Positions 21,732 through 32,349 of a stretch of DNA of 35,344 nt are shown piece by piece. The stretch is from the IMG/VR virus record IMGVR_UViG_3300045988_151333, one strand, 5' to 3'. Source of the DNA: a virus. The stretch's first letter is position 1. Each line of letters begins with the position of its first letter. A model generated the notes under the pieces. The model was not told the origin of the DNA and did not search any database. It saw nothing but the letters and a program-made list of their open reading frames with translations. A program made the translations under genes and the position numbers.

Positions 21732-23420
21732 ATGGCAGAACATTTTGGATTTTTCGATGCCTTGGAAACGGCAGACGGACTATATGACCGTACATATTCG
21801 GCGCGTGACTATAGCGAAAACTTAGCAACGATTATAAGCAACGGCGTTTTACGTTCAACAAATGATGATTTGAAAGTTACGGTTAATGGCTTGACCGTAA
21901 CCGTAGGAATAGGCAGAGCGTGGATAAACGGCTGTTGGTATCATAACGATAACAATTATGTTTTCCCAGCCGTAACCGTTCCGACAGGCGGCGCACGGTA
22001 TGACCGTGTTATATTAAGGTACAGCAACGTACTTTCTGATCGAGATATTAAGCTTATGTATTTGCAAGGCGAAGCGGTGAGTAGTCCGAAAAAGCCTGCA
22101 ATAACAAGGAATGATGATGTTTATGACCTTGTTCTTGCCGATATATACGTCGGCACAAATGCAACAAGTCTTTCTGTTAAAGATACCCGAAGTGATGCAC
22201 AGCTGTGCGGCTGGGTGTATTCAACTTCCGGTGACAACTCGTTCTTCAAAAGTCTTGACGGAGCATTTAACGAATGGTTTGAAGAAACAAAAAACACGTT
22301 GTCAAGCGTAACGCTCTTTAAACGCTATAATTGGCGCACGACGATTGAAGCTGAAACAAACACAGTTTCGTTTGACATTCCCCAATATGATGCCGAGACA
22401 ACATTCATTGAAGTATATACAAATGGCGTTCTTGATTCCGAAGGCGTTGACTACACACTTGAAAACAGCGTGATAACGTTTAGTGGCTTGCCGCTTACGG
22501 CCGGTACAGAGGTTGAGGTTAAGTGCTACAAATCAATCGACGGTACTGGAATATTAAGCGTGGCAGATGAAATAACCGCGTTGCAAAATGCCGTTGCGAA
22601 ATTAAATGCAGCGGACGAATGCGTATATAAATGCAACGGAGCCGATGACAACGTGAAGCTTTCAGAACTTGCGCAAGAGTGGTTGAGCGACGATTTAGAT
22701 TATAGCTCGAAAACAATAAAGATATATGGAACATTTGGCGCGACTGCTGCCTGCGCAGGCGCAGGCACGGCGGCCAATCCGTATAAATGGTTTAATTTCG
22801 GACTTGCTGAAAGCGTAAAGAGGCGTATAACTTTTGACTTTTCAACCTGCTCGCAAATAACGCTGCCGATAGCAGCCGGCACATCAAATGTTGTTTTTTC
22901 CGGCTCAGATGTGCACGTTATCGGCGCAAATGTAATCGCAACGCAAAGTGCGACAAATACAAACATAAAAATGTTCGATTCAAACATCGGCTCTGTATCT
23001 GCTGAGGATTGCCGTTTTTGGATAACAGCTTACAGCGGAAGCTTTATATCACAAACGGGTAATTTCACAAACTGCCGCGCCAGCGTGGCGAATGCATCGG
23101 GCGATTCGTACTGTTTTCAGCCGACAACGGCAAGTTTGCTCAAAATTAACGGCGGCGAATACTACGGATACACCGGTGGAAGCGCCCACAAGAGTGCCGT
23201 AATCGGGCAAACAACAGGAAATGCCGTTTCTGTTTTGAACGGCGTTAACGCGCCCACAGTAGCACGTTCCGGATATTACCAAACACACGCAATCTTTCAG
23301 GATACAAACGGCGGACGTCTTAATTGTTCTGATTTAATCAGTGAACTCGCCGTATCGGTTGCTTCGAACATAAGCGATGTCCGAGGGACGATTGCAAAAA
23401 GCAAACCGGGCACTATATAA
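21732..23420 (+). CDS. Tail fibre / receptor-binding protein with a probable beta-helix C-terminal region
   Basis: 562 aa. N-terminal FGFFDA...DRTYSARDYSENLATIISNGV pattern. The C-terminus is repetitive and G/S/N/T-rich. Last gene of the tail module. Confidence 0.65.
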   Translation: MAEHFGFFDALETADGLYDRTYSARDYSENLATIISNGVLRSTNDDLKVTVNGLTVTVGIGRAWINGCWYHNDNNYVFPAVTVPTGGARYDRVILRYSNVLSDRDIKLMYLQGEAVSSPKKPAITRNDDVYDLVLADIYVGTNATSLSVKDTRSDAQLCGWVYSTSGDNSFFKSLDGAFNEWFEETKNTLSSVTLFKRYNWRTTIEAETNTVSFDIPQYDAETTFIEVYTNGVLDSEGVDYTLENSVITFSGLPLTAGTEVEVKCYKSIDGTGILSVADEITALQNAVAKLNAADECVYKCNGADDNVKLSELAQEWLSDDLDYSSKTIKIYGTFGATAACAGAGTAANPYKWFNFGLAESVKRRITFDFSTCSQITLPIAAGTSNVVFSGSDVHVIGANVIATQSATNTNIKMFDSNIGSVSAEDCRFWITAYSGSFISQTGNFTNCRASVANASGDSYCFQPTTASLLKINGGEYYGYTGGSAHKSAVIGQTTGNAVSVLNGVNAPTVARSGYYQTHAIFQDTNGGRLNCSDLISELAVSVASNISDVRGTIAKSKPGTI

Positions 23421-23460
23421 AGTGAATATTGCTTACCTACCATGTGTAGGCGGAGCGGAG

Positions 23461-23520
23461 AAAACGCCGACATTTATTTGTCGGCGTTTTTGTTTTAAAA
23501 AACTTCAGTTGAAGTTTTTT
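23461..23520 (+). terminator. Tandem rho-independent terminators ending the structural operon
   Basis: 12-bp stem AAAACGCCGACA/TGTCGGCGTTTT (23461-23490) plus a T-run, then AACTTCA..TGAAGTT plus a T-run (23499-23520). Confidence 0.8.
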
Positions 23521-23540
23521 TGCTTTTTTTAAAATTTCTG

Positions 23541-23569
23541 TTGATAATACCACGATAACGTGGTATTAT
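23541..23569 (+). promoter_or_regulatory. Promoter (TTGATA-17-TATTAT) overlapped by a 26-bp perfect palindrome
   Basis: -35 at 23541-46 and -10 at 23564-69. Palindrome arms ATAATACCACG (23544-54) and CGTGGTATTAT (23559-69). Confidence 0.6.
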
Positions 23570-23640
23570 ATAAGAGAACTAAGGGACACATTATGCACCG
23601 GCAGGATTTGCGAGATTGAAATAAAAGGAGCTTGTGGTTA

Positions 23641-24216
23641 GTGGCAATTAACATTTATATTGATAAGGGCGGACATTCCGCCCTTGAAAAATGGACCCCG
23701 ACGCACAAAGATACTGTTTTATATTACGCGACGGATGAATTCCGATTTTTTAACAAATTTGTTTTGATTTTCGAAAACGCTTATAAAGCGTTTTGCGAAG
23801 TAAAAAAGCAAGGATACAAAATAAATATCGTTAACGAAGAAGGCACCGCAATCAAGTTGTTTGTTGAATTTGATAAAAGTGAAAAAAACGATTTTAACGT
23901 AAAATATAAACTTATTAAACCATTGGAATATGAAATGTTAAACGAGGTTGTGAATACGGTCATCACAGTCGCATCTGATGTTAATGCCTTGTTTTTTGAA
24001 CTTCAAATTCTGAATCGAAAAGTTGATTTATATTCAAAGGACCAAAATTGGCTAATCAGAGAGTTGAACAATAACCCAATACTCGTTCCTGTCGGCTCGC
24101 ATTTGTCGCCGGAAGGTGTTTTCGGCGTAAAAGGTCATCTTCGCCACTATAAGAGCGGCAAAACGGTATGGATTGACGATTTTGTTAAAGGAGTTGACAA
24201 GAATGAAAATACTTAA
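23641..24216 (+). CDS. Hypothetical protein (moron cassette 1, gene 1)
   Basis: AAAAGGAG RBS lies 10 nt upstream of GTG 23641; the TTG at 23632 is too close to the RBS. The C-terminal GHLRHYKSGKTVWIDDFVKG motif was not identified. Confidence 0.6.
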   Translation: MAINIYIDKGGHSALEKWTPTHKDTVLYYATDEFRFFNKFVLIFENAYKAFCEVKKQGYKINIVNEEGTAIKLFVEFDKSEKNDFNVKYKLIKPLEYEMLNEVVNTVITVASDVNALFFELQILNRKVDLYSKDQNWLIRELNNNPILVPVGSHLSPEGVFGVKGHLRHYKSGKTVWIDDFVKGVDKNENT

Positions 24217-24655
24217 AAAAAACGGATTGCAAAATATCGGCTTTGACAAATTAACAATAAACGAACATTTTATTTATGCTGACGGAGCGTTCGAGTTTTT
24301 CGCAATTAAGGTTAGCAAGGATTATGCAGTTTTTATAAATGCGGACGAAAATTTTATTTGTGCCAAAGCGTTTAAAAATTGCTTATCAATAGGCGCAGGC
24401 GTTGTCTCAGAATTTCCAACCTTTGACGAAGCCGTCAAGGCTTGCGGAGCGGATATAGTCGAGCGCAGCGAAATTGCATTTTACGGACAACGAGATAAAA
24501 TGATGTCCGTGTCTGACTACGCTCGAAAGCACGGAGTCGACCCCTCGACCGTCCGCCACAAAATAAGTCGAGGTTTGTTACCGGCAGTTAAGATTGGGAA
24601 AATGTGGCTTGTTAAAGAAAGCGAGCCGTGGACCGACCAAAGAAGAAAAAAATAG
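24203..24655 (+). CDS. DNA-binding protein with a C-terminal excisionase/MerR-type HTH (moron cassette 1, gene 2)
   Basis: AAAGGAG RBS. Overlaps the upstream gene by 14 nt. MSVSDYARKHGVDPSTVRHKISRGLLPAVKIGKMWLV is HTH_17-like. Confidence 0.6.
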   Translation: MKILKKNGLQNIGFDKLTINEHFIYADGAFEFFAIKVSKDYAVFINADENFICAKAFKNCLSIGAGVVSEFPTFDEAVKACGADIVERSEIAFYGQRDKMMSVSDYARKHGVDPSTVRHKISRGLLPAVKIGKMWLVKESEPWTDQRRKK

Positions 24656-24682
24656 GAGAGCTGAAAAGCTCTCCTATTTTTT
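24651..24682 (+). terminator. Rho-independent terminator
   Basis: 11-bp stem AATAGGAGAGC/GCTCTCCTATT followed by TTTTT. Confidence 0.8.
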
Positions 24683-24764
24683 GTAGGGGCATTTGTTGCA
24701 GCGCATATTTGCGATAGACATTTACGTGATAAAAAATATATTGATAAAATGTTAAAAAAAGGTG

Positions 24765-24810
24765 TTGACATAATCGTACGTCTATGTTATAATATAGTCA
24801 CAGTTAAGGA
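24765..24810 (+). promoter_or_regulatory. Consensus sigma-70 promoter copy A (TTGACA-17-TATAAT) with an operator-like palindrome in the spacer
   Basis: 45 of 46 nt identical to 26101-26146. ACATAATCGTACGTCTATGT (24768-87) is palindromic at 16 of 20 positions. Confidence 0.7.
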
Positions 24811-24844
24811 AGATAACAAATCCAAAACAGAAGGACAAAGAAAA

Positions 24845-25243
24845 ATGAAAGTTTATATCAAAGAATGGTTTTTTAATAAAAATTGGTGCTCGATTATTAG
24901 AAACTATATGCTAAACGAACGCGCTGTTTACGTTATCGGCGAAACTGAAAAAGCATACAAAGTCGAGGGCGGCTTCACAACTCAGGACGGCGAACGTGAA
25001 AACACTTTTGATTTTTGGGTTCCGAAATCTTGCACAATGACTGAGGAAGAATACGCCGCCGAACAAAAGGCATTTGCCGAAAGACAAGAAGAAATTGAAA
25101 AACACTTCAAAGAAGGCTGCGAAGCTTACGAAGCGTTGCTCAAGTTTGCAAAAGAAAACAATGTTAAAGGCGTTCGCAAAGGAATGAAAAAAGAAACTAT
25201 ATTAAACAAAATTCACGATGCAGGGCTTGAGTACAACGCTTGA
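24845..25243 (+). CDS. Hypothetical protein (133 aa), first gene of moron cassette 2
   Basis: First ATG downstream of the promoter. The 24749 start in the ORF track lies upstream of the -35 element. Confidence 0.55.
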   Translation: MKVYIKEWFFNKNWCSIIRNYMLNERAVYVIGETEKAYKVEGGFTTQDGERENTFDFWVPKSCTMTEEEYAAEQKAFAERQEEIEKHFKEGCEAYEALLKFAKENNVKGVRKGMKKETILNKIHDAGLEYNA

Positions 25244-25278
25244 GTTTGCTTTAAAAAAACAAAGAAAGGTGATATTAA

Positions 25279-25464
25279 ATGGACAAACGAAAAATGACAC
25301 CGCAAGAACGGTACGCGGAGAAGTACCGCCGACAATACAAGATGGATTGTATAACGAGGACGGAACAAGATATAATCCAAAAGCTCGACAGTGTTCCAAA
25401 TAAAGCTGGTTATATCAAGCAGCTTATCCGAGCAGATATTGCGGCAAATAAAGGAAAGGAGTAA
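25279..25464 (+). CDS. Ribbon-helix-helix (CopG/Arc-like) small DNA-binding protein
   Basis: 61 aa. The pattern ...NKAGYIKQLIRADIA is typical of RHH C-terminal helices. Confidence 0.45.
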   Translation: MDKRKMTPQERYAEKYRRQYKMDCITRTEQDIIQKLDSVPNKAGYIKQLIRADIAANKGKE

Positions 25465-25470
25465 AACATT

Positions 25471-25644
25471 ATGAAAATTTACACAGCAGATAAAGAAACG
25501 GGCACATTCATAGATGAATGTAAGGATATACAAGAAGCAAAAAAATTGATACAACAATACGAAGAAGAAGACAGAAAAGAAAACATTTATACAGCCGATT
25601 TTTACGATATAGTCAACGAATTTCACGAGACGATAAAACAATAA
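25471..25644 (+). CDS. Small acidic hypothetical protein (57 aa)
   Basis: AAAGGAGTAA RBS. Below the ORF-track cutoff. Confidence 0.45.
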   Translation: MKIYTADKETGTFIDECKDIQEAKKLIQQYEEEDRKENIYTADFYDIVNEFHETIKQ

Positions 25645-25677
25645 ATCACAACAAATAAAGAAAAGGAGTTAACAAAA

Positions 25678-26019
25678 ATGAAATATTATGAAGTTGCGGA
25701 AATAACCTTAAATCTCAATTCTAAAGGGTACGAAATGGGAGACGAGGAGAGCTCGTATATGGGCCCGGATTACAAAAAAGCCATTTGTGTGTGCGATGAG
25801 GCCTTAAGTAATTGGGAGCGTCTTGATTACAGGGACAAAAAGGAAAGCGCAATAGAAGGTAGGATATACGAAATCCCCGATGATACAGATATAAACGATA
25901 AAGATGAAATAATTAACGCGATATGTGACGCGTGCGAATATGACACGTTTTTTTCACATTATCCGGAAGACGATTTTAAAAAAAGCCAAGAAAAAATAAA
26001 CGCTCTTATAAATGCGTGA
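25678..26019 (+). CDS. Acidic hypothetical protein (113 aa)
   Basis: AAAGGAG RBS. D/E-rich. Confidence 0.55.
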   Translation: MKYYEVAEITLNLNSKGYEMGDEESSYMGPDYKKAICVCDEALSNWERLDYRDKKESAIEGRIYEIPDDTDINDKDEIINAICDACEYDTFFSHYPEDDFKKSQEKINALINA

Positions 26020-26042
26020 AAATTAAATCATTAAATAACAGA

Positions 26043-26075
26043 CCCCACCGAAGGCATTTGCCGCGGTGGGGTTTT
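26043..26075 (+). terminator. Rho-independent terminator
   Basis: Stem CCCCACCG/CGGTGGGG followed by TTTT. Confidence 0.75.
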
Positions 26076-26100
26076 AATTACAAAAAATAGTAAAAAGCCC

Positions 26101-26146
26101 TTGACATAATCGTACGTCTATGTTATAATATAATCACAGTTAAGGA
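26101..26146 (+). promoter_or_regulatory. Consensus sigma-70 promoter copy B with the same spacer palindrome
   Basis: -35 TTGACA at 26101-06, 17-nt spacer, -10 TATAAT at 26124-29. AGGAGG RBS at 26143-48. Confidence 0.7.
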
Positions 26147-26156
26147 GGTGATAAGA

Positions 26157-26261
26157 ATGAAAAAGCAAAATCAAAAGCCTACCGCCTTTGAAATTGCATA
26201 TCTTGTTATCGAAGCAATCGTTGCAATCGCTACTTTGATAACGGCAATCAAATGGTGGTAG
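26157..26261 (+). CDS. 34-aa hydrophobic peptide (type I toxin / holin-like toxin candidate)
   Basis: MKKQNQKPTAFEIAYLVIEAIVAIATLITAIKWW. Has a perfect promoter and a perfect RBS, a single TM segment and a WW C-terminus. Confidence 0.5.
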   Translation: MKKQNQKPTAFEIAYLVIEAIVAIATLITAIKWW

Positions 26262-26336
26262 GCTACATAGAGGGGCTTTTGCCCCTCCCCCTTGCGGGAG
26301 TATATATAATATAACACATAGAAAGGAATTTTACAA

Positions 26337-26516
26337 GTGTTCAATAAAAACTTTTGGCTGATTACTCTTTGCGCATTGCTTATAATTTCGATATATACTG
26401 GGCTTAATATATTTTCGAGAATTGCACTCGGTGCAAACGGCTTGATTATATTAGCCGATGTAATTATAAGTGTTCGCAGATTGGCAAAAGAGAAAAAGTG
26501 CAAAGAGAGCGATTAA
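26337..26516 (+). CDS. 59-aa two-TM membrane protein
   Basis: GTG start with a GAAAGGAA RBS 8 nt upstream. Below the ORF-track cutoff. Confidence 0.4.
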   Translation: MFNKNFWLITLCALLIISIYTGLNIFSRIALGANGLIILADVIISVRRLAKEKKCKESD

Positions 26517-26540
26517 AAACTCTCAGCACATCGCAAGTTT

Positions 26541-26565
26541 TGACTTGCATTTGACTTGCATTTTT
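26541..26565 (+). repeat. 25-nt repeat TGACTTGCATTTGACTTGCATTTTT (two tandem 11-mers); candidate integrase arm-type site
   Basis: Exact second copy at 26774-26798. The two copies flank the tRNA-like core. Confidence 0.6.
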
Positions 26566-26625
26566 TCTTTTAAATAGCCGCAAATGGCACAAAATAGCGC
26601 AAAAACGGGTGACATTTTGATAATT

Positions 26626-26672
26626 AAAAAACGCCGAAAGCCCTTGATACACAAGGCTTTTCAGCGTTTTTT
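26626..26672. terminator. Bidirectional terminator hairpin flanked by an A-run and a T-run
   Basis: Outer stem AAAAAACGC/GCGTTTTTT with inner pairing. On the minus strand it directly follows the tRNA 3' end. Confidence 0.6.
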
Positions 26673-26697
26673 GCTGCCGCTTTCAAAAACGGCGTTT

Positions 26698-26735
26698 TGG
26701 AGCGGGTGATGGGAATCGAACCCACTATCTTACAT
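26698..26735 (-). other. attP core: 3' end of a tRNA (T-arm, acceptor 3' strand, discriminator U, CCA), probably tRNA-Gly; not a complete gene
   Basis: The minus strand reads GTGGGTTCGATTCCCATCACCCGCTCCA. No 5' acceptor strand (GCGGGTG) or D-arm within 100 nt. Confidence 0.7.
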
Positions 26736-26767
26736 CGCAAAATCGTTGATATATCAACGATTTTGCG
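26736..26767. repeat. 32-bp perfect palindrome (15-bp arms, 2-nt centre) abutting the attP core
   Basis: CGCAAAATCGTTGAT AT ATCAACGATTTTGCG, read directly. Confidence 0.9.
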
Positions 26768-26773
26768 GAATGC

Positions 26774-26798
26774 TGACTTGCATTTGACTTGCATTTTT
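26774..26798 (+). repeat. Second copy of the 25-nt arm-type repeat
   Basis: Identical to 26541-26565. Confidence 0.6.
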
Positions 26799-26876
26799 AT
26801 TTTTATTTCAAAGCTTCGCCTCAGAAGCACCCAATATCTCGCCCATATTTCAGCGAAGATTTTCGGAGCGGAAAAG

Positions 26877-28052
26877 TCAAAAAGCGGAGCGGATATCCGA
26901 AGCCGTTTTTGCAGTTGACTGCAAAAACTTGTTGAATTTATCAATATCGCTTGATTCTTTTTCCTTAGAAAGATGTGTGTAAATTGAAAGAGTTGTCTTA
27001 ATATCAGAATGTCCGAGTAATTCTTTTGCGGTTAAAACGTCTACGCCGGCATCGTACAGCATTGTTGCGTAAGTGTGGCGCAGGCAATGCGGCGTGAATG
27101 TGTCTATCGTCAAAGGCAGCGTTTTTCTACGGTCGGCAGCTGTGCCGATAAAGCACCCGTATTTCTTGTTAAGGCACAACATATAACTATGCCAAAGTTT
27201 ATCCCAAGCCGAATTTGACATATAACCGCCCACGGTGTTCGGGAAAACGAGCGTTGATTTTTTAGGCATATGTCGCATATAATCGGCAAGAATATCAGGC
27301 ATTTGTATTATGCGATTTCCGGCAGCGGTTTTTGTGGATTTTACGGCTTTAGTTGGCGCGCAATAACTTTTATTTATTGAAATAGTTTTACTATCAAAAT
27401 TCACATCCGACCAAAGAAGCGCGGTAAGCTCCCCGCGGCGAAGCCCTGCAAATAACATTATCATAGCCGCCGGTTGTGCTCGGTGCGGCGTGTCGAGAAT
27501 CCATGCCCGCTGTTCGGCGGTAAGTGCGGAGCGGCTCTTTGAAGGTGTGCCCGCCGGGACGTTCAAAAGTTCTTCAACCGGCGAGCGATCAATAATTCTG
27601 TTAGCTGCACAATATTTAAAAAACTGCTTGATAATCGATGTATATTCGATTAACGTTTTACGCGATGTAGGCTTACCCGAATACGGATTGCAGGCGGCGA
27701 ACGCATCAAGGACGGCTTGAACATCACAAAGCCGAATTTTTGAAATATCAAACTCGCCAAAATGCTGTACGAAGTGATCGAGCCTCTGACTAATGCACTT
27801 ATACCAGCTGGCGGATACGGTGTTTTTTTTCGAAATTAAAAATCGGTTTGCCCAAAAAGCAAAAGTGCGGTTTTCGGAAATCAAATCAACGCCACGATGT
27901 AGCTGTGCACGAAGCTCCGCCGCCTTTTGGTCGGCTTCTTTTTGAGTTTTGCCGTAAACCGATTTATATTTGCGTTTGCCGTCAACGCTGCCGACGTAAA
28001 CTTGAACGACTATTCGGCCGTCGGCGCGGCGGGGGTTTGTTTTCTTCGGCAT
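26877..28052 (-). CDS. int: Tyrosine integrase
   Basis: 391 aa. HCLRHTYATMLYDAG...LLGHSDIKTTLSIYTH. Adjacent to the tRNA-fragment attP. Confidence 0.92.
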   Translation of the reverse strand: MPKKTNPRRADGRIVVQVYVGSVDGKRKYKSVYGKTQKEADQKAAELRAQLHRGVDLISENRTFAFWANRFLISKKNTVSASWYKCISQRLDHFVQHFGEFDISKIRLCDVQAVLDAFAACNPYSGKPTSRKTLIEYTSIIKQFFKYCAANRIIDRSPVEELLNVPAGTPSKSRSALTAEQRAWILDTPHRAQPAAMIMLFAGLRRGELTALLWSDVNFDSKTISINKSYCAPTKAVKSTKTAAGNRIIQMPDILADYMRHMPKKSTLVFPNTVGGYMSNSAWDKLWHSYMLCLNKKYGCFIGTAADRRKTLPLTIDTFTPHCLRHTYATMLYDAGVDVLTAKELLGHSDIKTTLSIYTHLSKEKESSDIDKFNKFLQSTAKTASDIRSAF

Positions 28053-31760: not shown

Positions 31761-31845
31761 CCGCCCTGCGCAGCAACGCAAGACGGCCGCCCGGTAAATA
31801 CCGAAGCAAAATCATGTATAAATATTATATCAAGAAATTCGGTAT

Positions 31846-32349
31846 TTGTCAAATTTTCAAAACGTCCGTTTGGGCGTTTGGCGGCCTTGTATTCTATCGT
31901 ATCTTTTCAAGCAAAAAGAAGACGCAAACGGCTACAATGCAAAAGAAAAGGAAGTGACAAATACTTTGTTTTTTAAAAATCAGTCAGTCAATCAGTCATT
32001 CGATGAAACGCTCGGAAAAATCAAAGCCCAAATTGAAATAGACAGTGTCCCTGTTGAGCTTCTATTACAAGCTGAAGAGCTTGCGGTTATCATCGCCGAG
32101 GTTATGAGGCTTCGGCAATCTGACGCGCTCAAGGTCGGAGGGGTTATACGCCCGGCCGGAGATGTTCAGGCTGTTTTCGCGAAAATCGAAAACGAGCACA
32201 TCATATACGTGCTTGAGCATTACAACGAAGTGCCGTATCGGATACGGAATCCGAAGCAGTACCTGCGCACGGCTCTTTATAACTCCGTTTTTGAAATCAA
32301 CAACGCCGCTGCGAACCTATACAGTGCCACGGAAGGCGGGCGGCCATGA
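31846..32349 (+). CDS. Replication-associated accessory protein (start uncertain; TTG 31966 with an AAGGAAGTG RBS is an alternative)
   Basis: Stop overlaps the Rep start (ATGA). The C-terminal IRNPKQYLRTALYNSVFE pattern resembles replisome-organiser-type C-termini. Confidence 0.45.
   Translation: MSNFQNVRLGVWRPCILSYLFKQKEDANGYNAKEKEVTNTLFFKNQSVNQSFDETLGKIKAQIEIDSVPVELLLQAEELAVIIAEVMRLRQSDALKVGGVIRPAGDVQAVFAKIENEHIIYVLEHYNEVPYRIRNPKQYLRTALYNSVFEINNAAANLYSATEGGRP

What the first reader, a model, noticed from the sequence alone, without database searches (positions are those of the whole stretch)
24765..26146. Identical consensus promoter with an embedded palindromic operator, duplicated in front of two different moron cassettes
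Seen: 24765-24810 and 26101-26146 are identical at 45 of 46 nt. Each copy is a perfect TTGACA-17-TATAAT promoter. Its spacer is almost entirely filled by a 20-nt near-palindrome, ACATAATCGTACGTCTATGT (16 of 20 symmetric, CGTACG core). One copy drives a 4-gene operon (24845-26019) and the other drives a 34-aa hydrophobic peptide (26157-26261). Each unit ends in its own hairpin.

Inference: the two cassettes form a regulon controlled by one dimeric DNA-binding protein. Candidates are the RHH protein at 25279-25464 or the HTH protein at 24203-24655. A maximal-strength promoter that needs built-in repression is the layout of anti-CRISPR/Aca loci and of toxin-antitoxin modules.
Basis: partly seen in the sequence, partly recalled or inferred. 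Interest (0 to 1): 0.7.

Follow-up and report, generated by a model that had tools for sequence, protein, structure and literature searches.

The report
Phage promoter pair sharing one repressor site
A gut-Clostridia prophage carries two copies of a maximal-strength promoter with a built-in palindromic operator, and comparison with related phages indicates that a small unannotated ribbon-helix-helix-type protein made by the first operon shuts both down, a known kind of self-limiting circuit (as in anti-CRISPR loci).

Summary
Positions 24765-24810 and 26101-26146 match at 45 of 46 nt. Both are TTGACA-17-TATAAT promoters with a TGn/TRTG extended -10 and an A-rich upstream tract. Each spacer holds ACATAATCGTACGTCTATGT.

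The palindrome alone is weak evidence, because its arms are partly promoter consensus. About 10% of unrelated consensus promoters are equally symmetric.

The 61-aa protein at 25279-25464 belongs to a large unannotated family. In about 50 related phage loci its gene lies 60-520 nt downstream of the same promoter chassis. The spacer core changes with the protein's predicted beta-strand, while its helices stay invariant. Some relatives have perfect palindromes.

The peptide-plus-59-aa unit behind box 2 occurs in other phages with its own CopG-type RHH gene and a different operator. Here it has no regulator of its own and carries the neighbour's operator.

The HTH_17 gene is absent from relatives that keep both boxes, so it is rejected as the regulator.

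Best explanation: an autorepressing RHH-like protein controls both promoters, giving a pulse on infection and low expression in lysogens. This resembles Arc/Pant, CopG/Pcr and Aca14. The function of the regulated genes is unknown. It is a new member of a known kind. Nothing has been tested experimentally.

The parts
24739..24764 (+). A-rich upstream tract of box 1 (UP-element-like); part of the 72-nt repeat
   Evidence: 72-nt direct repeat at 83% identity. An AAAAA-N3 tract directly upstream of TTGACA recurs in nearly all family promoters.
24765..24793 (+). Box 1 promoter: -35 TTGACA (24765-24770), 17-nt spacer, TATG -16 element (24783-24786), -10 TATAAT (24788-24793)
   Evidence: Scores 12/12 with TG. 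The 29-mer occurs exactly twice in the window.
24768..24787 (.). Operator 1: ACATAATCGTACGTCTATGT, 16/20 palindrome with CGTACG core
   Evidence: Perfect-palindrome versions occur in relatives: L158, L160, and an 18-mer in L172-176.
24794..24844 (+). Leader of operon 1; 24794-24810 repeats the box 2 leader up to GTTAAGGA, a vestigial ribosome-binding site
   Evidence: The AGTTAAGGA leader is shared with L001, L008 and L162.
24845..25243 (+). Cargo gene 1, 132 aa, no known family
   Evidence: No hits in Pfam, PHROGs, PADLOC, NCBIfam or PDB sequences.
25279..25464 (+). 61-aa RHH-like protein, the proposed autorepressor of both boxes
   Evidence: Family of 223 clusters at 90% identity and 2706 representatives at 50% identity, with no Pfam match. 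Helices are invariant and residues 19-27 are variable. AF2 monomer model: extended 18-28, helices 29-38 and 42-58. A natural tandem member folds as two beta-alpha-alpha units. The operator core co-varies with the strand.
25471..25644 (+). Cargo gene 3, 57 aa, acidic; replaced by a 167-aa ORF in L167, L168 and L171
25678..26019 (+). Cargo gene 4, 113 aa, acidic, no known family
26040..26074 (+). Intrinsic terminator of operon 1
   Evidence: Free energy -25 kcal/mol, z = -5.8, followed by a U-tract.
26075..26100 (+). A-rich upstream tract of box 2
26101..26129 (+). Box 2 promoter, identical 29-mer to box 1
26104..26123 (.). Operator 2, identical to operator 1
   Evidence: Variants in relatives change only positions 14 and 20 of the 20-mer.
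26157..26261 (+). 34-aa tail-anchored hydrophobic peptide (…ITAIKWW)
   Evidence: Homologues in L251, L272, L282 and L314 are the first gene of cassettes that end in a CopG-type RHH gene.
26270..26287 (+). GC hairpin without a U-tract, between the peptide gene and the 59-aa gene; conserved in relatives
26308..26336 (-). Candidate convergent promoter TTGTAA-17-TATATT with TGn; possible antisense RNA against the 3' end of the peptide gene
   Evidence: The TTGNAA-17-TAnnnT pattern is kept in five diverged lineages. The -35 part overlaps the start codon and ribosome-binding site of the 59-aa gene, so that conservation is confounded.
26337..26516 (+). 59-aa two-TM protein, co-cargo with the peptide
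   Evidence: Homologous and syntenic in L251, L272, L282 and L314, where the RHH gene follows it directly.

Best explanation
The window is a complete temperate siphovirus genome from a gut Clostridia host. At the prophage's right end, next to attR, are two transcription units. Each is driven by the same maximal sigma-A promoter: A-tract, TTGACA, a 17-nt spacer, TRTG and TATAAT.

The promoter spacer contains a 20-bp dyad, ACATA-NN-CGTACG-NN-TATGT. The 61-aa protein encoded as the second gene of the first unit (25279-25464) is an RHH-type dimeric DNA-binding protein. I propose that it binds this dyad, with its variable beta-strand reading the core. Its conserved N-terminal helix may contact the conserved arms. 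Bound between the -35 and -10, it would block RNA polymerase.

Because both promoters carry the same operator, the protein would repress its own operon (negative feedback) and, in trans, the peptide/59-aa unit. On entering a naive cell both promoters would fire at full strength, then shut down as the repressor accumulates. In lysogens both would idle at the feedback set-point.

Shown here:
- the sequence anatomy;
- co-occurrence of the gene and the promoter chassis;
- co-variation of the strand and the operator core;
- the natural cargo/operator swaps.

Inferred, not shown:
- DNA binding;
- repression;
- the kinetics;
- the RHH fold of this exact protein.
For: - **Genome context.** The window is a circular phage genome with a 119-nt terminal overlap. 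It encodes an integrase, a CI-like repressor, a Cro-like protein and terminase subunits. It is integrated into a tRNA gene in contigs of up to 2 Mb, and both boxes are present in 6 of 6 integrated prophages examined.
- **DNA-only scans.** Scanning for TTGACA-N4-CGTACG-N4-TGTTATAAT recovered 15 Clostridia or phage loci plus one chance hit. Every operon behind such a box encodes a small DNA-binding protein, either RHH-like or, in one case, AbrB/MazE-like. The exception is the box 2-type unit, which always sits beside a box 1 operon.
- **Perfect palindromes.** L158 and L160 carry perfect 20-bp palindromes. L172-176 carry the perfect 18-mer CATAGGCGTACGCCTATG.
- **Protein-first scan.** Of 65 viral loci encoding homologues, about 50 have an 11-12/12 TTGACA-17-TATAAT promoter 58-520 nt upstream. 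Their spacers are much more symmetric than those of 84 control promoters (4.6 vs 2.7 of 6 inner pairs; Mann-Whitney p = 2e-9).
- **Co-variation of strand and core.**
  - KQ[FY]K[IM]DC goes with CGTACG.
  - KQY[SL]LPC goes with TTATATAA.
  - xIR[LF]M goes with GTGCAnTAC.
  - KLLTIRL goes with GGTATATACC.
  - KVYRLKV goes with CGGGGCACCG.
  - YTIKV goes with odd-centred ATACGTAATACGTAT.
  - The Mantel correlation is r = 0.60, p = 2e-4. The helices are invariant while residues 19-27 vary.
- **Same backbone, different regulator allele.** L173, L184 and L194 share a homologous operon backbone. They differ at the operator core and at the strand codons together.
- **Natural swap.** The peptide-hairpin-59-aa unit is driven by the TACT-N6-AGTA operators of CopG-type RHHs in L251, L272, L282 and L314. 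In the window it is driven by the CGTACG operator, and there the only nearby RHH is the QYKMDC type.
- **Sister cassettes.** Their regulators are bona fide Pfam RHH_1 / RepB-RCR_reg proteins and use the same chassis.
- **Fold.** The monomer model has an extended segment followed by two helices. The natural tandem member P0131 is predicted as H-E-H-H / E-H-H (pLDDT 79, pTM 0.72). Its best PDB matches are the roughly 110-residue chains of the F relaxosome. That structure contains three TraY molecules, and TraY is a single-chain RHH dimer (PMC12117103).
- **Precedent.** Aca14, CopG and Arc work this way (PMC13551039; PMC2724298).
Against: - There is no experimental evidence for a transcription start, for binding or for repression.
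- The window protein has no Pfam, NCBIfam or PDB sequence match. Foldseek on its monomer model finds nothing.
- Profile-profile links to bona fide RHH proteins are weak (E = 6.5e-4 to 0.015), although always in the same register. The TraY match is also weak (E = 0.09, TM about 0.5).
- Regulator and operator are physically linked, so some co-variation would arise from shared descent alone.
- The CGTACG core also occurs with three other small regulators (L004/L160, L158 and the AbrB-like L006). One QFKIDC member, L180, has a degenerate half-site. In the sister family, one strand type goes with two different cores.
- The window operator is only 16/20 symmetric. About half of its symmetric positions are promoter consensus.
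Confidence: 0.72

Rival explanations
1. The two boxes are simply duplicated strong constitutive promoters ('moron' promoters). The palindrome is a by-product of promoter consensus (ACA of the -35, TATG of the -16 element) plus chance, and nothing binds it.
For: About 10% of unrelated examples reach 16/20 symmetry. The window copy is only 16/20 symmetric.
Against: Relatives have perfect 18-20-bp palindromes. RHH-linked spacers are far more symmetric than controls (p = 2e-9). The GC-rich core sits in an otherwise AT-rich spacer and is kept across different contexts while the adjacent NN positions drift. The core switches together with the regulator allele.
Confidence: 0.07
2. Another protein binds the dyad: the HTH_17 protein at 24203-24655, the phage CI/Cro pair, or a host factor.
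For: The HTH_17 gene lies immediately upstream. No binding data exist for any protein.
Against: The HTH_17 gene is on an indel (23506-24745) that is missing from L002, L003, L005, L009, L010 and the integrated prophage L231, all of which keep both boxes. No related dyad exists anywhere else in the genome, including the CI/Cro intergenic region, whose repeats are of the TTGCAA type. A host factor would not explain why the core changes with the phage's RHH allele.
Confidence: 0.06
3. The system is a toxin-antitoxin or abortive-infection module. The 34-aa membrane peptide would be the toxin. Either the RHH protein is its antitoxin (type II-like), or a convergent antisense RNA from 26336..26308 is (type I-like). 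RHH repression would be an extra safety layer.
For: The layout box, tail-anchored peptide, RHH recurs in L008, L158, L160, L004 and L251. An AbrB/MazE-like protein replaces the RHH in L006. A minus-strand TTGNAA-17-TAnnnT element is kept in five diverged lineages.
Against: The RHH has no C-terminal tail beyond the fold. Its operon partners are highly variable and often soluble: 65 cargo clusters were found. No toxin family is detected. No Rfam family is detected. The -35 of the antisense promoter overlaps the start of the 59-aa gene, so its conservation is confounded.
Confidence: 0.15

Closest known systems
Aca14, the RHH anti-CRISPR-associated regulator (Pasteurella; NAR 2026, PMC13551039)
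   Same: A small RHH protein encoded inside a mobile-element operon. An inverted repeat lies inside the operon's promoter. The protein represses its own operon and a neighbouring operon that carries the same motif. A helical extension next to the RHH core is predicted to touch DNA.
   Different: Its inverted repeat overlaps the -10 rather than filling the spacer. It comes from Proteobacteria. Its operons contain recognised acr genes or csx20, whereas the cargo here is unannotated.
Arc repressor and Pant in the immI region of phage P22
   Same: A phage RHH protein of about 53-61 aa, encoded in the operon it represses. The promoter is strong. By my own knowledge the operator lies between the -35 and -10. 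An N-terminal region also contacts DNA (PMC2724298).
   Different: Arc controls an antirepressor and an overlapping divergent promoter, Pmnt. Its 21-bp operator is bound by two dimers. No sequence similarity was detected. The host is enterobacterial.
CopG and Pcr of plasmid pMV158 (Pfam RHH_1 / RepB-RCR_reg)
   Same: An autoregulated RHH from a Gram-positive host that binds a pseudo-symmetric element inside its own promoter. The sister cassettes found here (L120, L251 and others) carry proteins matching exactly these Pfam families on the same promoter chassis.
   Different: CopG controls plasmid replication. Its element overlaps the -35. The window protein itself does not reach any Pfam RHH model.
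Type I and type II toxin-antitoxin modules (par/Fst; RHH antitoxins such as RelB and ParD)
   Same: A strong, autorepressed promoter. A small hydrophobic peptide. A possible convergent antisense promoter. RHH and AbrB domains that can replace each other.
   Different: There is no fixed toxin partner. The RHH has no toxin-binding tail. In the window the peptide is a separate transcription unit. No known toxin or RNA family matches.

Membership tests
Ribbon-helix-helix (Arc/MetJ/CopG) DNA-binding superfamily | A beta-strand, helix, helix unit that pairs into an intertwined dimer with a two-stranded antiparallel ribbon | tested here: inconclusive
   The AF2 monomer model has an extended segment at 18-28 and helices at 29-38 and 42-58. 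The natural tandem family member P0131 is predicted as E17-25/H/H plus E75-83/H/H (pTM 0.72). Its top PDB hits are chains in the size range of TraY, a single-chain RHH (prob 0.92, but E = 0.09). Against this, there is no Pfam or PDB sequence hit, the monomer gives no Foldseek hit, and hhalign gives only E = 6.5e-4 to 0.015.
Ribbon-helix-helix (Arc/MetJ/CopG) DNA-binding superfamily | A dyad or repeat operator overlapping the promoter of the regulator's own operon | tested here: met
   A 20-bp dyad fills the spacer of the promoter 514 nt upstream of the gene. The same arrangement is seen in about 50 homologous loci.
Ribbon-helix-helix (Arc/MetJ/CopG) DNA-binding superfamily | Base-specific recognition by beta-strand residues | tested here: inconclusive
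   The strand (residues 19-27) is the only variable part of the protein. It co-varies with the operator core. Linkage and shared descent are not fully controlled for. Direct binding cannot be tested with these tools.
acr-aca (anti-CRISPR / Aca) operons | The regulator is co-encoded with a recognised anti-CRISPR or anti-defence gene | tested here: not met
   No cargo gene of the window, and none of 29 cargo-cluster representatives, matches an Acr or anti-defence family. The only hint is a sub-threshold AcrIC5 match (18.9 bits against a cutoff of 27) in the C-terminal part of the fused homologue P0265.
acr-aca (anti-CRISPR / Aca) operons | A strong promoter with inverted-repeat operators, a regulator gene in the operon, and the same motif on neighbouring operons | tested here: met
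   Two 12/12 promoters carry identical dyads, and the RHH-like gene is in operon 1.
acr-aca (anti-CRISPR / Aca) operons | Sequence membership in a named Aca family (Aca1-14) | not testable with these tools
   No Aca profile library was available, and the Aca14 sequence is not in the held text. The protein has no HTH domain.
Type II toxin-antitoxin with an RHH antitoxin | The antitoxin has a toxin-neutralising extension and a fixed cognate toxin in a two-gene operon | tested here: not met
   The fold spans residues about 19-58 of 61. Partners fall into 65 unrelated clusters. No toxin family was found.
Type I toxin-antitoxin (hydrophobic peptide plus antisense RNA) | A small membrane peptide with an overlapping or convergent antisense RNA gene | tested here: inconclusive
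   The peptide is present. A convergent promoter-like element is kept in five lineages, but it overlaps a start codon and ribosome-binding site. There is no Rfam match and no expression data.

The most novel reading that the evidence does not exclude
The 61-aa protein may represent a very large, un-named RHH-like family: 2706 representatives at 50% identity and no Pfam model. Together with a CopG-type sister family, it could act as the 'Aca' of gut Clostridia phages.

The design is a constant maximal sigma-A promoter chassis whose spacer holds a swappable operator core matched to the regulator's beta-strand. That would give dozens of natural orthogonal repressor/operator pairs. These would flag islands of tiny, wholly unannotated early or lysogenic-conversion genes, such as anti-defence proteins or membrane effectors like the KWW peptide.

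The window phage would then be a case in which one regulator has captured a second cargo unit by operator replacement.
Probability: 0.3. Interest if true: 0.75.

Novelty: new member of a known kind. Interest (0 to 1): 0.5.

Why it matters
If the inference holds, three things follow.

1. It gives a name and a function to a large protein family that is currently 'hypothetical' and abundant in human and animal gut phages. The window's exact protein is indexed in 917 blocks of the assembly collection.
2. It provides a guilt-by-association handle, like aca genes, for finding anti-defence or lysogenic-conversion genes in Clostridia phages, where almost none are known.
3. It offers a ready-made set of repressor/operator pairs on one consensus Gram-positive promoter, which would be useful as orthogonal genetic parts.

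The mechanism itself, an RHH autorepressor with its operator inside a strong promoter, is well known from Arc, CopG and Aca14. The conceptual surprise is therefore limited.

Tried and rejected
- **HTH_17 protein as regulator.** Rejected, because its gene lies on an indel absent from relatives that keep both boxes.
- **CI/Cro operators.** There is no related dyad in the immunity region or anywhere else in the genome.
- **Annotation of the RHH-like protein.** Pfam, NCBIfam, PADLOC and PDB sequence searches found nothing.
- **Fold search on the monomer model.** Foldseek against PDB and BFVD found nothing. Only the natural tandem member gave RHH-like hits, and those were weak.
- **Annotation of the cargo genes.** Pfam, PHROGs, PADLOC, NCBIfam and PDB found nothing except an IS30-type transposase in relatives.
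- **GenBank phage collection, DNA search.** No match to 24700-26560. The protein search found only distant homologues, including the cultured Butyrivibrio phage Ceridwen.
- **Rfam on 23400-27000.** Only sub-threshold, terminator-like noise.
- **Mis-specified scan.** My first unconstrained scan used an 18-nt spacer by mistake. It returned only unrelated consensus promoters and served as an informal control.
- **L159 (Poribacteria).** This hit of the genome scan is a chance match with no small regulator downstream.
- **Aca14 sequence.** It could not be retrieved.
Full report
**Observation**

The two stretches 24765-24810 and 26101-26146 differ at one base. The repeat extends upstream to 72 nt at 83% identity (24739-24810 vs 26075-26146). 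The 29-mer TTGACATAATCGTACGTCTATGTTATAAT occurs exactly twice even with 3 mismatches allowed, with none expected by chance.

Both copies score 12/12 against TTGACA-17-TATAAT and have TG before the -10. Only one other 12/12 promoter exists in the whole window. The spacer holds ACATAATCGTACGTCTATGT, which is 16/20 self-complementary. CGTACG occurs nowhere else in the 35 kb, against about 5.7 expected.

Operon 1 ends in a strong intrinsic terminator (26040-26074, -25 kcal/mol). The hairpin after the peptide gene (26270-26287) has no U-tract.

**How much does the palindrome mean on its own?**

Not much. ACA belongs to the -35. TATG is the Gram-positive -16 'TRTG' element (my own knowledge: Voskuil and Chambliss 1998).

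A scan for the scaffold TTGACAT-N12-ATGTTATAATATA, with the core left free, hit more than 120 viral loci and was capped. About one in ten unrelated examples is at least 16/20 symmetric, mostly because their spacers are AT-rich. The case therefore rests on comparative evidence.

**Context**

The window is a complete circular phage genome with a 119-nt terminal overlap. It encodes:
- a tyrosine integrase (26877-28052, minus strand);
- a CI-like S24 repressor and a second XRE protein;
- a Cro-like protein;
- a holin-peptidase;
- small and large terminase subunits.

The exact RHH protein (56-aa form, P0003) is recorded on 630 contigs and is listed in 917 blocks of the assembly collection. These include contigs of up to 2 Mb in which the prophage is integrated.

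The phage/host junction is at window position 26725, inside the 3' end of a tRNA gene. Both boxes are present in 6 of 6 integrated copies examined. The cassettes are therefore the last genes before attR, the classical moron position. Hosts named by the genome scan are uncultured Clostridia and Cuneatibacter.

**DNA-first comparison**

I scanned for TTGACA-N4-CGTACG-N4-TGTTATAAT. This found 10 viral and 6 genomic loci. One of them, from a Poribacteria genome, is a chance hit.

Six of the viral loci are close relatives of the window. The other viral loci (L001, L004, L006, L008) and the genomic loci L158 and L160-L163 have different flanks and different genes. L158 (ACATACTCGTACGAGTATGT) and L160 (ACATATACGTACGTATATGT) are perfect 20-bp palindromes.

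Every operon behind such a box encodes a small DNA-binding protein within three genes:
- a homologue of the window's 61-aa protein (L001, L008, L162, L163);
- other RHH-like proteins (L004, L160, L158);
- an AbrB/MazE-like protein in one case (L006).

**Protein-first comparison**

The 61-aa protein has 223 homologous clusters at 90% identity. All are 'hypothetical' and none has a Pfam domain. An exhaustive profile search finds 2706 representatives at 50% identity.

In the alignment the two predicted helices are essentially invariant (TE.DII.KL.SVPNKAGYIK.LIRADIA). Residues 19-27 vary.

Of 65 viral loci encoding homologues, about 50 have an 11-12/12 TTGACA-17-TATAAT promoter 58-520 nt upstream. 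Their spacers are far more symmetric than those of 84 control promoters (4.6 vs 2.7 of 6 inner pairs; p = 2e-9).

The spacer core tracks the variable strand:

| Strand motif | Spacer core |
|---|---|
| KQ[FY]K[IM]DC | CGTACG (eight distinct contexts, including the perfect 18-mer CATAGGCGTACGCCTATG) |
| KQY[SL]LPC | CATAGTTATATAACTATG |
| xIR[LF]M | GTGCAnTAC |
| KLLTIRL | CATAGGTATATACCTATG |
| KVYRLKV | CATACGGGGCACCGTATG |
| YTIKV | odd-centred ATACGTAATACGTAT |

A Mantel test of strand distance against core distance gives r = 0.60, p = 2e-4. Physical linkage inflates such tests.

A control that is less sensitive to linkage comes from L173, L184 and L194. They share a homologous operon backbone (43-aa gene, hairpin, 55-aa gene, regulator). 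They differ at the operator core and at the strand codons together.

Within the window lineage, the substitutions between box copies fall only on positions 14 and 20 of the 20-mer. They never fall on the core or the CATA/TATG arms.

**A natural swap experiment**

The unit behind box 2 is the 34-aa ...ITAIKWW peptide, a GC hairpin and the 59-aa two-TM protein. It is homologous to the 5' part of cassettes in L251, L272/L281/L282 and L314.

In those phages the unit is followed directly by a CopG-type RHH gene (Pfam RHH_1 / RepB-RCR_reg). It is driven by the same promoter chassis with other operators: TACTCTTGATAGTA, TACTGCAAGCAGTA and TACTGCTTGCAGTA.

In the window the unit has no regulator of its own. 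It carries the CGTACG operator of the RHH-like protein encoded in the neighbouring operon. This is what trans-regulation predicts, and it is the strongest support for the 'regulon' reading.

**The other candidate**

The HTH_17/excisionase-like gene (24203-24655) lies on a 1.24-kb segment (23506-24745). That segment has its own promoter-like site and terminator. It is absent from five viral relatives and from the integrated prophage L231, all of which keep both boxes and the RHH gene. It is not the regulator.

No related dyad occurs in the CI/Cro region.

**Fold**

Evidence that this protein is an RHH is indirect.
- The AF2 monomer model has an N-terminal helix (8-17), an extended segment (18-28) and two helices.
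- Foldseek finds nothing for it.
- Profile-profile alignment to the bona fide RHH_1 sister family is weak (E = 6.5e-4 to 0.015), but it is full-length and always in the same register.
- The family contains natural tandem fusions. One of them, P0131, is predicted as H3-16, E17-25, H30-37, H42-55 followed by E75-83, H88-96, H100-118 (pLDDT 79, pTM 0.72).
- Its best PDB matches are chains E, F and G of the F-plasmid relaxosome entries (prob 0.92, E = 0.09, TM about 0.5).
- Those structures contain three TraY molecules. TraY carries the whole RHH dimer fold in one polypeptide (PMC12117103). I did not verify which chain is which protein.

I rate the RHH fold as likely, not proven. The functional inference rests on the co-variation, not on the fold.

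**Mechanism proposed**

The protein binds the dyad between the -35 and -10 of both promoters as a dimer, or as a dimer of dimers, and excludes or stalls RNA polymerase. Because it is encoded behind box 1, it sets its own level. Box 2 follows that level.

In a naive cell both units would fire at full strength and then shut off. In a lysogen both would idle.

The invariant N-terminal helix (PQERYAxKY) may read the conserved arms while the variable strand reads the variable core. That is inference. A helical extension contacting DNA was also modelled for Aca14.

**Comparison with known systems**

The closest are:
- Aca14, an RHH Aca that represses its own and a neighbouring operon through inverted repeats in the promoter (PMC13551039);
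- Arc/Pant of phage P22;
- CopG/Pcr of pMV158 (PMC2724298).

Membership in the acr-aca class fails on the defining point. No cargo gene is a recognised anti-defence gene. One sub-threshold AcrIC5 hit in a fused homologue is only a hint.

A type II toxin-antitoxin reading fails on the absence of a tail and on partner variability (65 cargo clusters).

A type I toxin-antitoxin layer for the peptide is not excluded. A convergent TTGNAA-17-TAnnnT element between the hairpin and the 59-aa start codon is kept in five diverged lineages. Its -35 overlaps a start codon and ribosome-binding site, and no RNA family matches.

**Verdict**

The system is a new, unannotated member of a well-known kind of circuit. 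It has an attractive modular promoter/operator design and cargo of unknown function. Interest is moderate (0.5). All functional statements remain untested experimentally.

Noticed in passing
window 26308-26336 (minus strand); L251, L272, L314, L250 at the equivalent place: A convergent promoter-like element, TTGNAA-17-TAnnnT (mostly with TGn), lies between the GC hairpin and the start of the 59-aa gene. It is kept in five diverged lineages. It could produce an antisense RNA against the 3' end of the 34-aa peptide gene, which is a type I TA-like layout. The -35 part overlaps the start codon and ribosome-binding site of the 59-aa gene.
   Followed up: partly
L173, L175, L176, L180, L181, L182 (= L001), L120 and others: In 39 of 112 RHH operons, an IS30-type transposase (about 345 aa; HTH_38 + rve; phrog_4646) follows the regulator gene directly. 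This holds for both RHH families. Serine recombinases follow in L212-L221. In the window a tyrosine integrase lies just downstream. The cassette may travel with recombinases, or may be a target for them.
   Followed up: partly
window 23506-24745: A 1.24-kb insertion carries a 194-aa ORF and a 150-aa HTH_17/excisionase-like protein (weak similarity to MADS MAD1). It has its own promoter-like site (23541) and a bidirectional terminator (24647-24682). It is present in some prophage copies and absent from others.
   Followed up: partly
window 26697-26725, 26541-26572 and 26774-26805: The attP core equals the 3' end of a host tRNA gene (junction at 26725). It is flanked by a 32-nt direct repeat, TGACTTGCATTTGACTTGCATTTTT (94% identity), which probably marks integrase arm-type sites.
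   Followed up: partly
whole window: CGTACG occurs only inside the two operators, against about 5.7 copies expected from base composition. This could reflect avoidance of stray operator cores or of a restriction site.
   Followed up: no
L229 (Butyrivibrio phage Ceridwen MN882553.2) 1510-1580: This cultured phage has a distant homologue of the regulator as the last gene of a 3-gene operon. The operon's promoter region carries two copies of the perfect 12-nt palindrome AAGTATATACTT, one over the -10 and one just downstream. It is a tractable model system.
   Followed up: partly
window 31824-31852 (minus strand): This is the third perfect TTGACA-17-TATAAT promoter in the genome. It points leftwards inside the rightward early region and has no palindromic spacer.
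   Followed up: no
L173, L176, L177, L184 (between the 43-aa and 55-aa genes) and window 26270-26300: A GC-rich hairpin without a U-tract, followed by a TATTATA-like motif, is a conserved feature after the first tiny ORF in many cassettes. It may be an attenuator, a processing site or an RNA-stabilising element.
   Followed up: no
P0121, P0130, P0131, P0229, P0230 (family members elsewhere): Natural tandem fusions of two or three copies of the domain exist. P0265 fuses the domain to a C-terminal region with a sub-threshold AcrIC5 match.
   Followed up: partly
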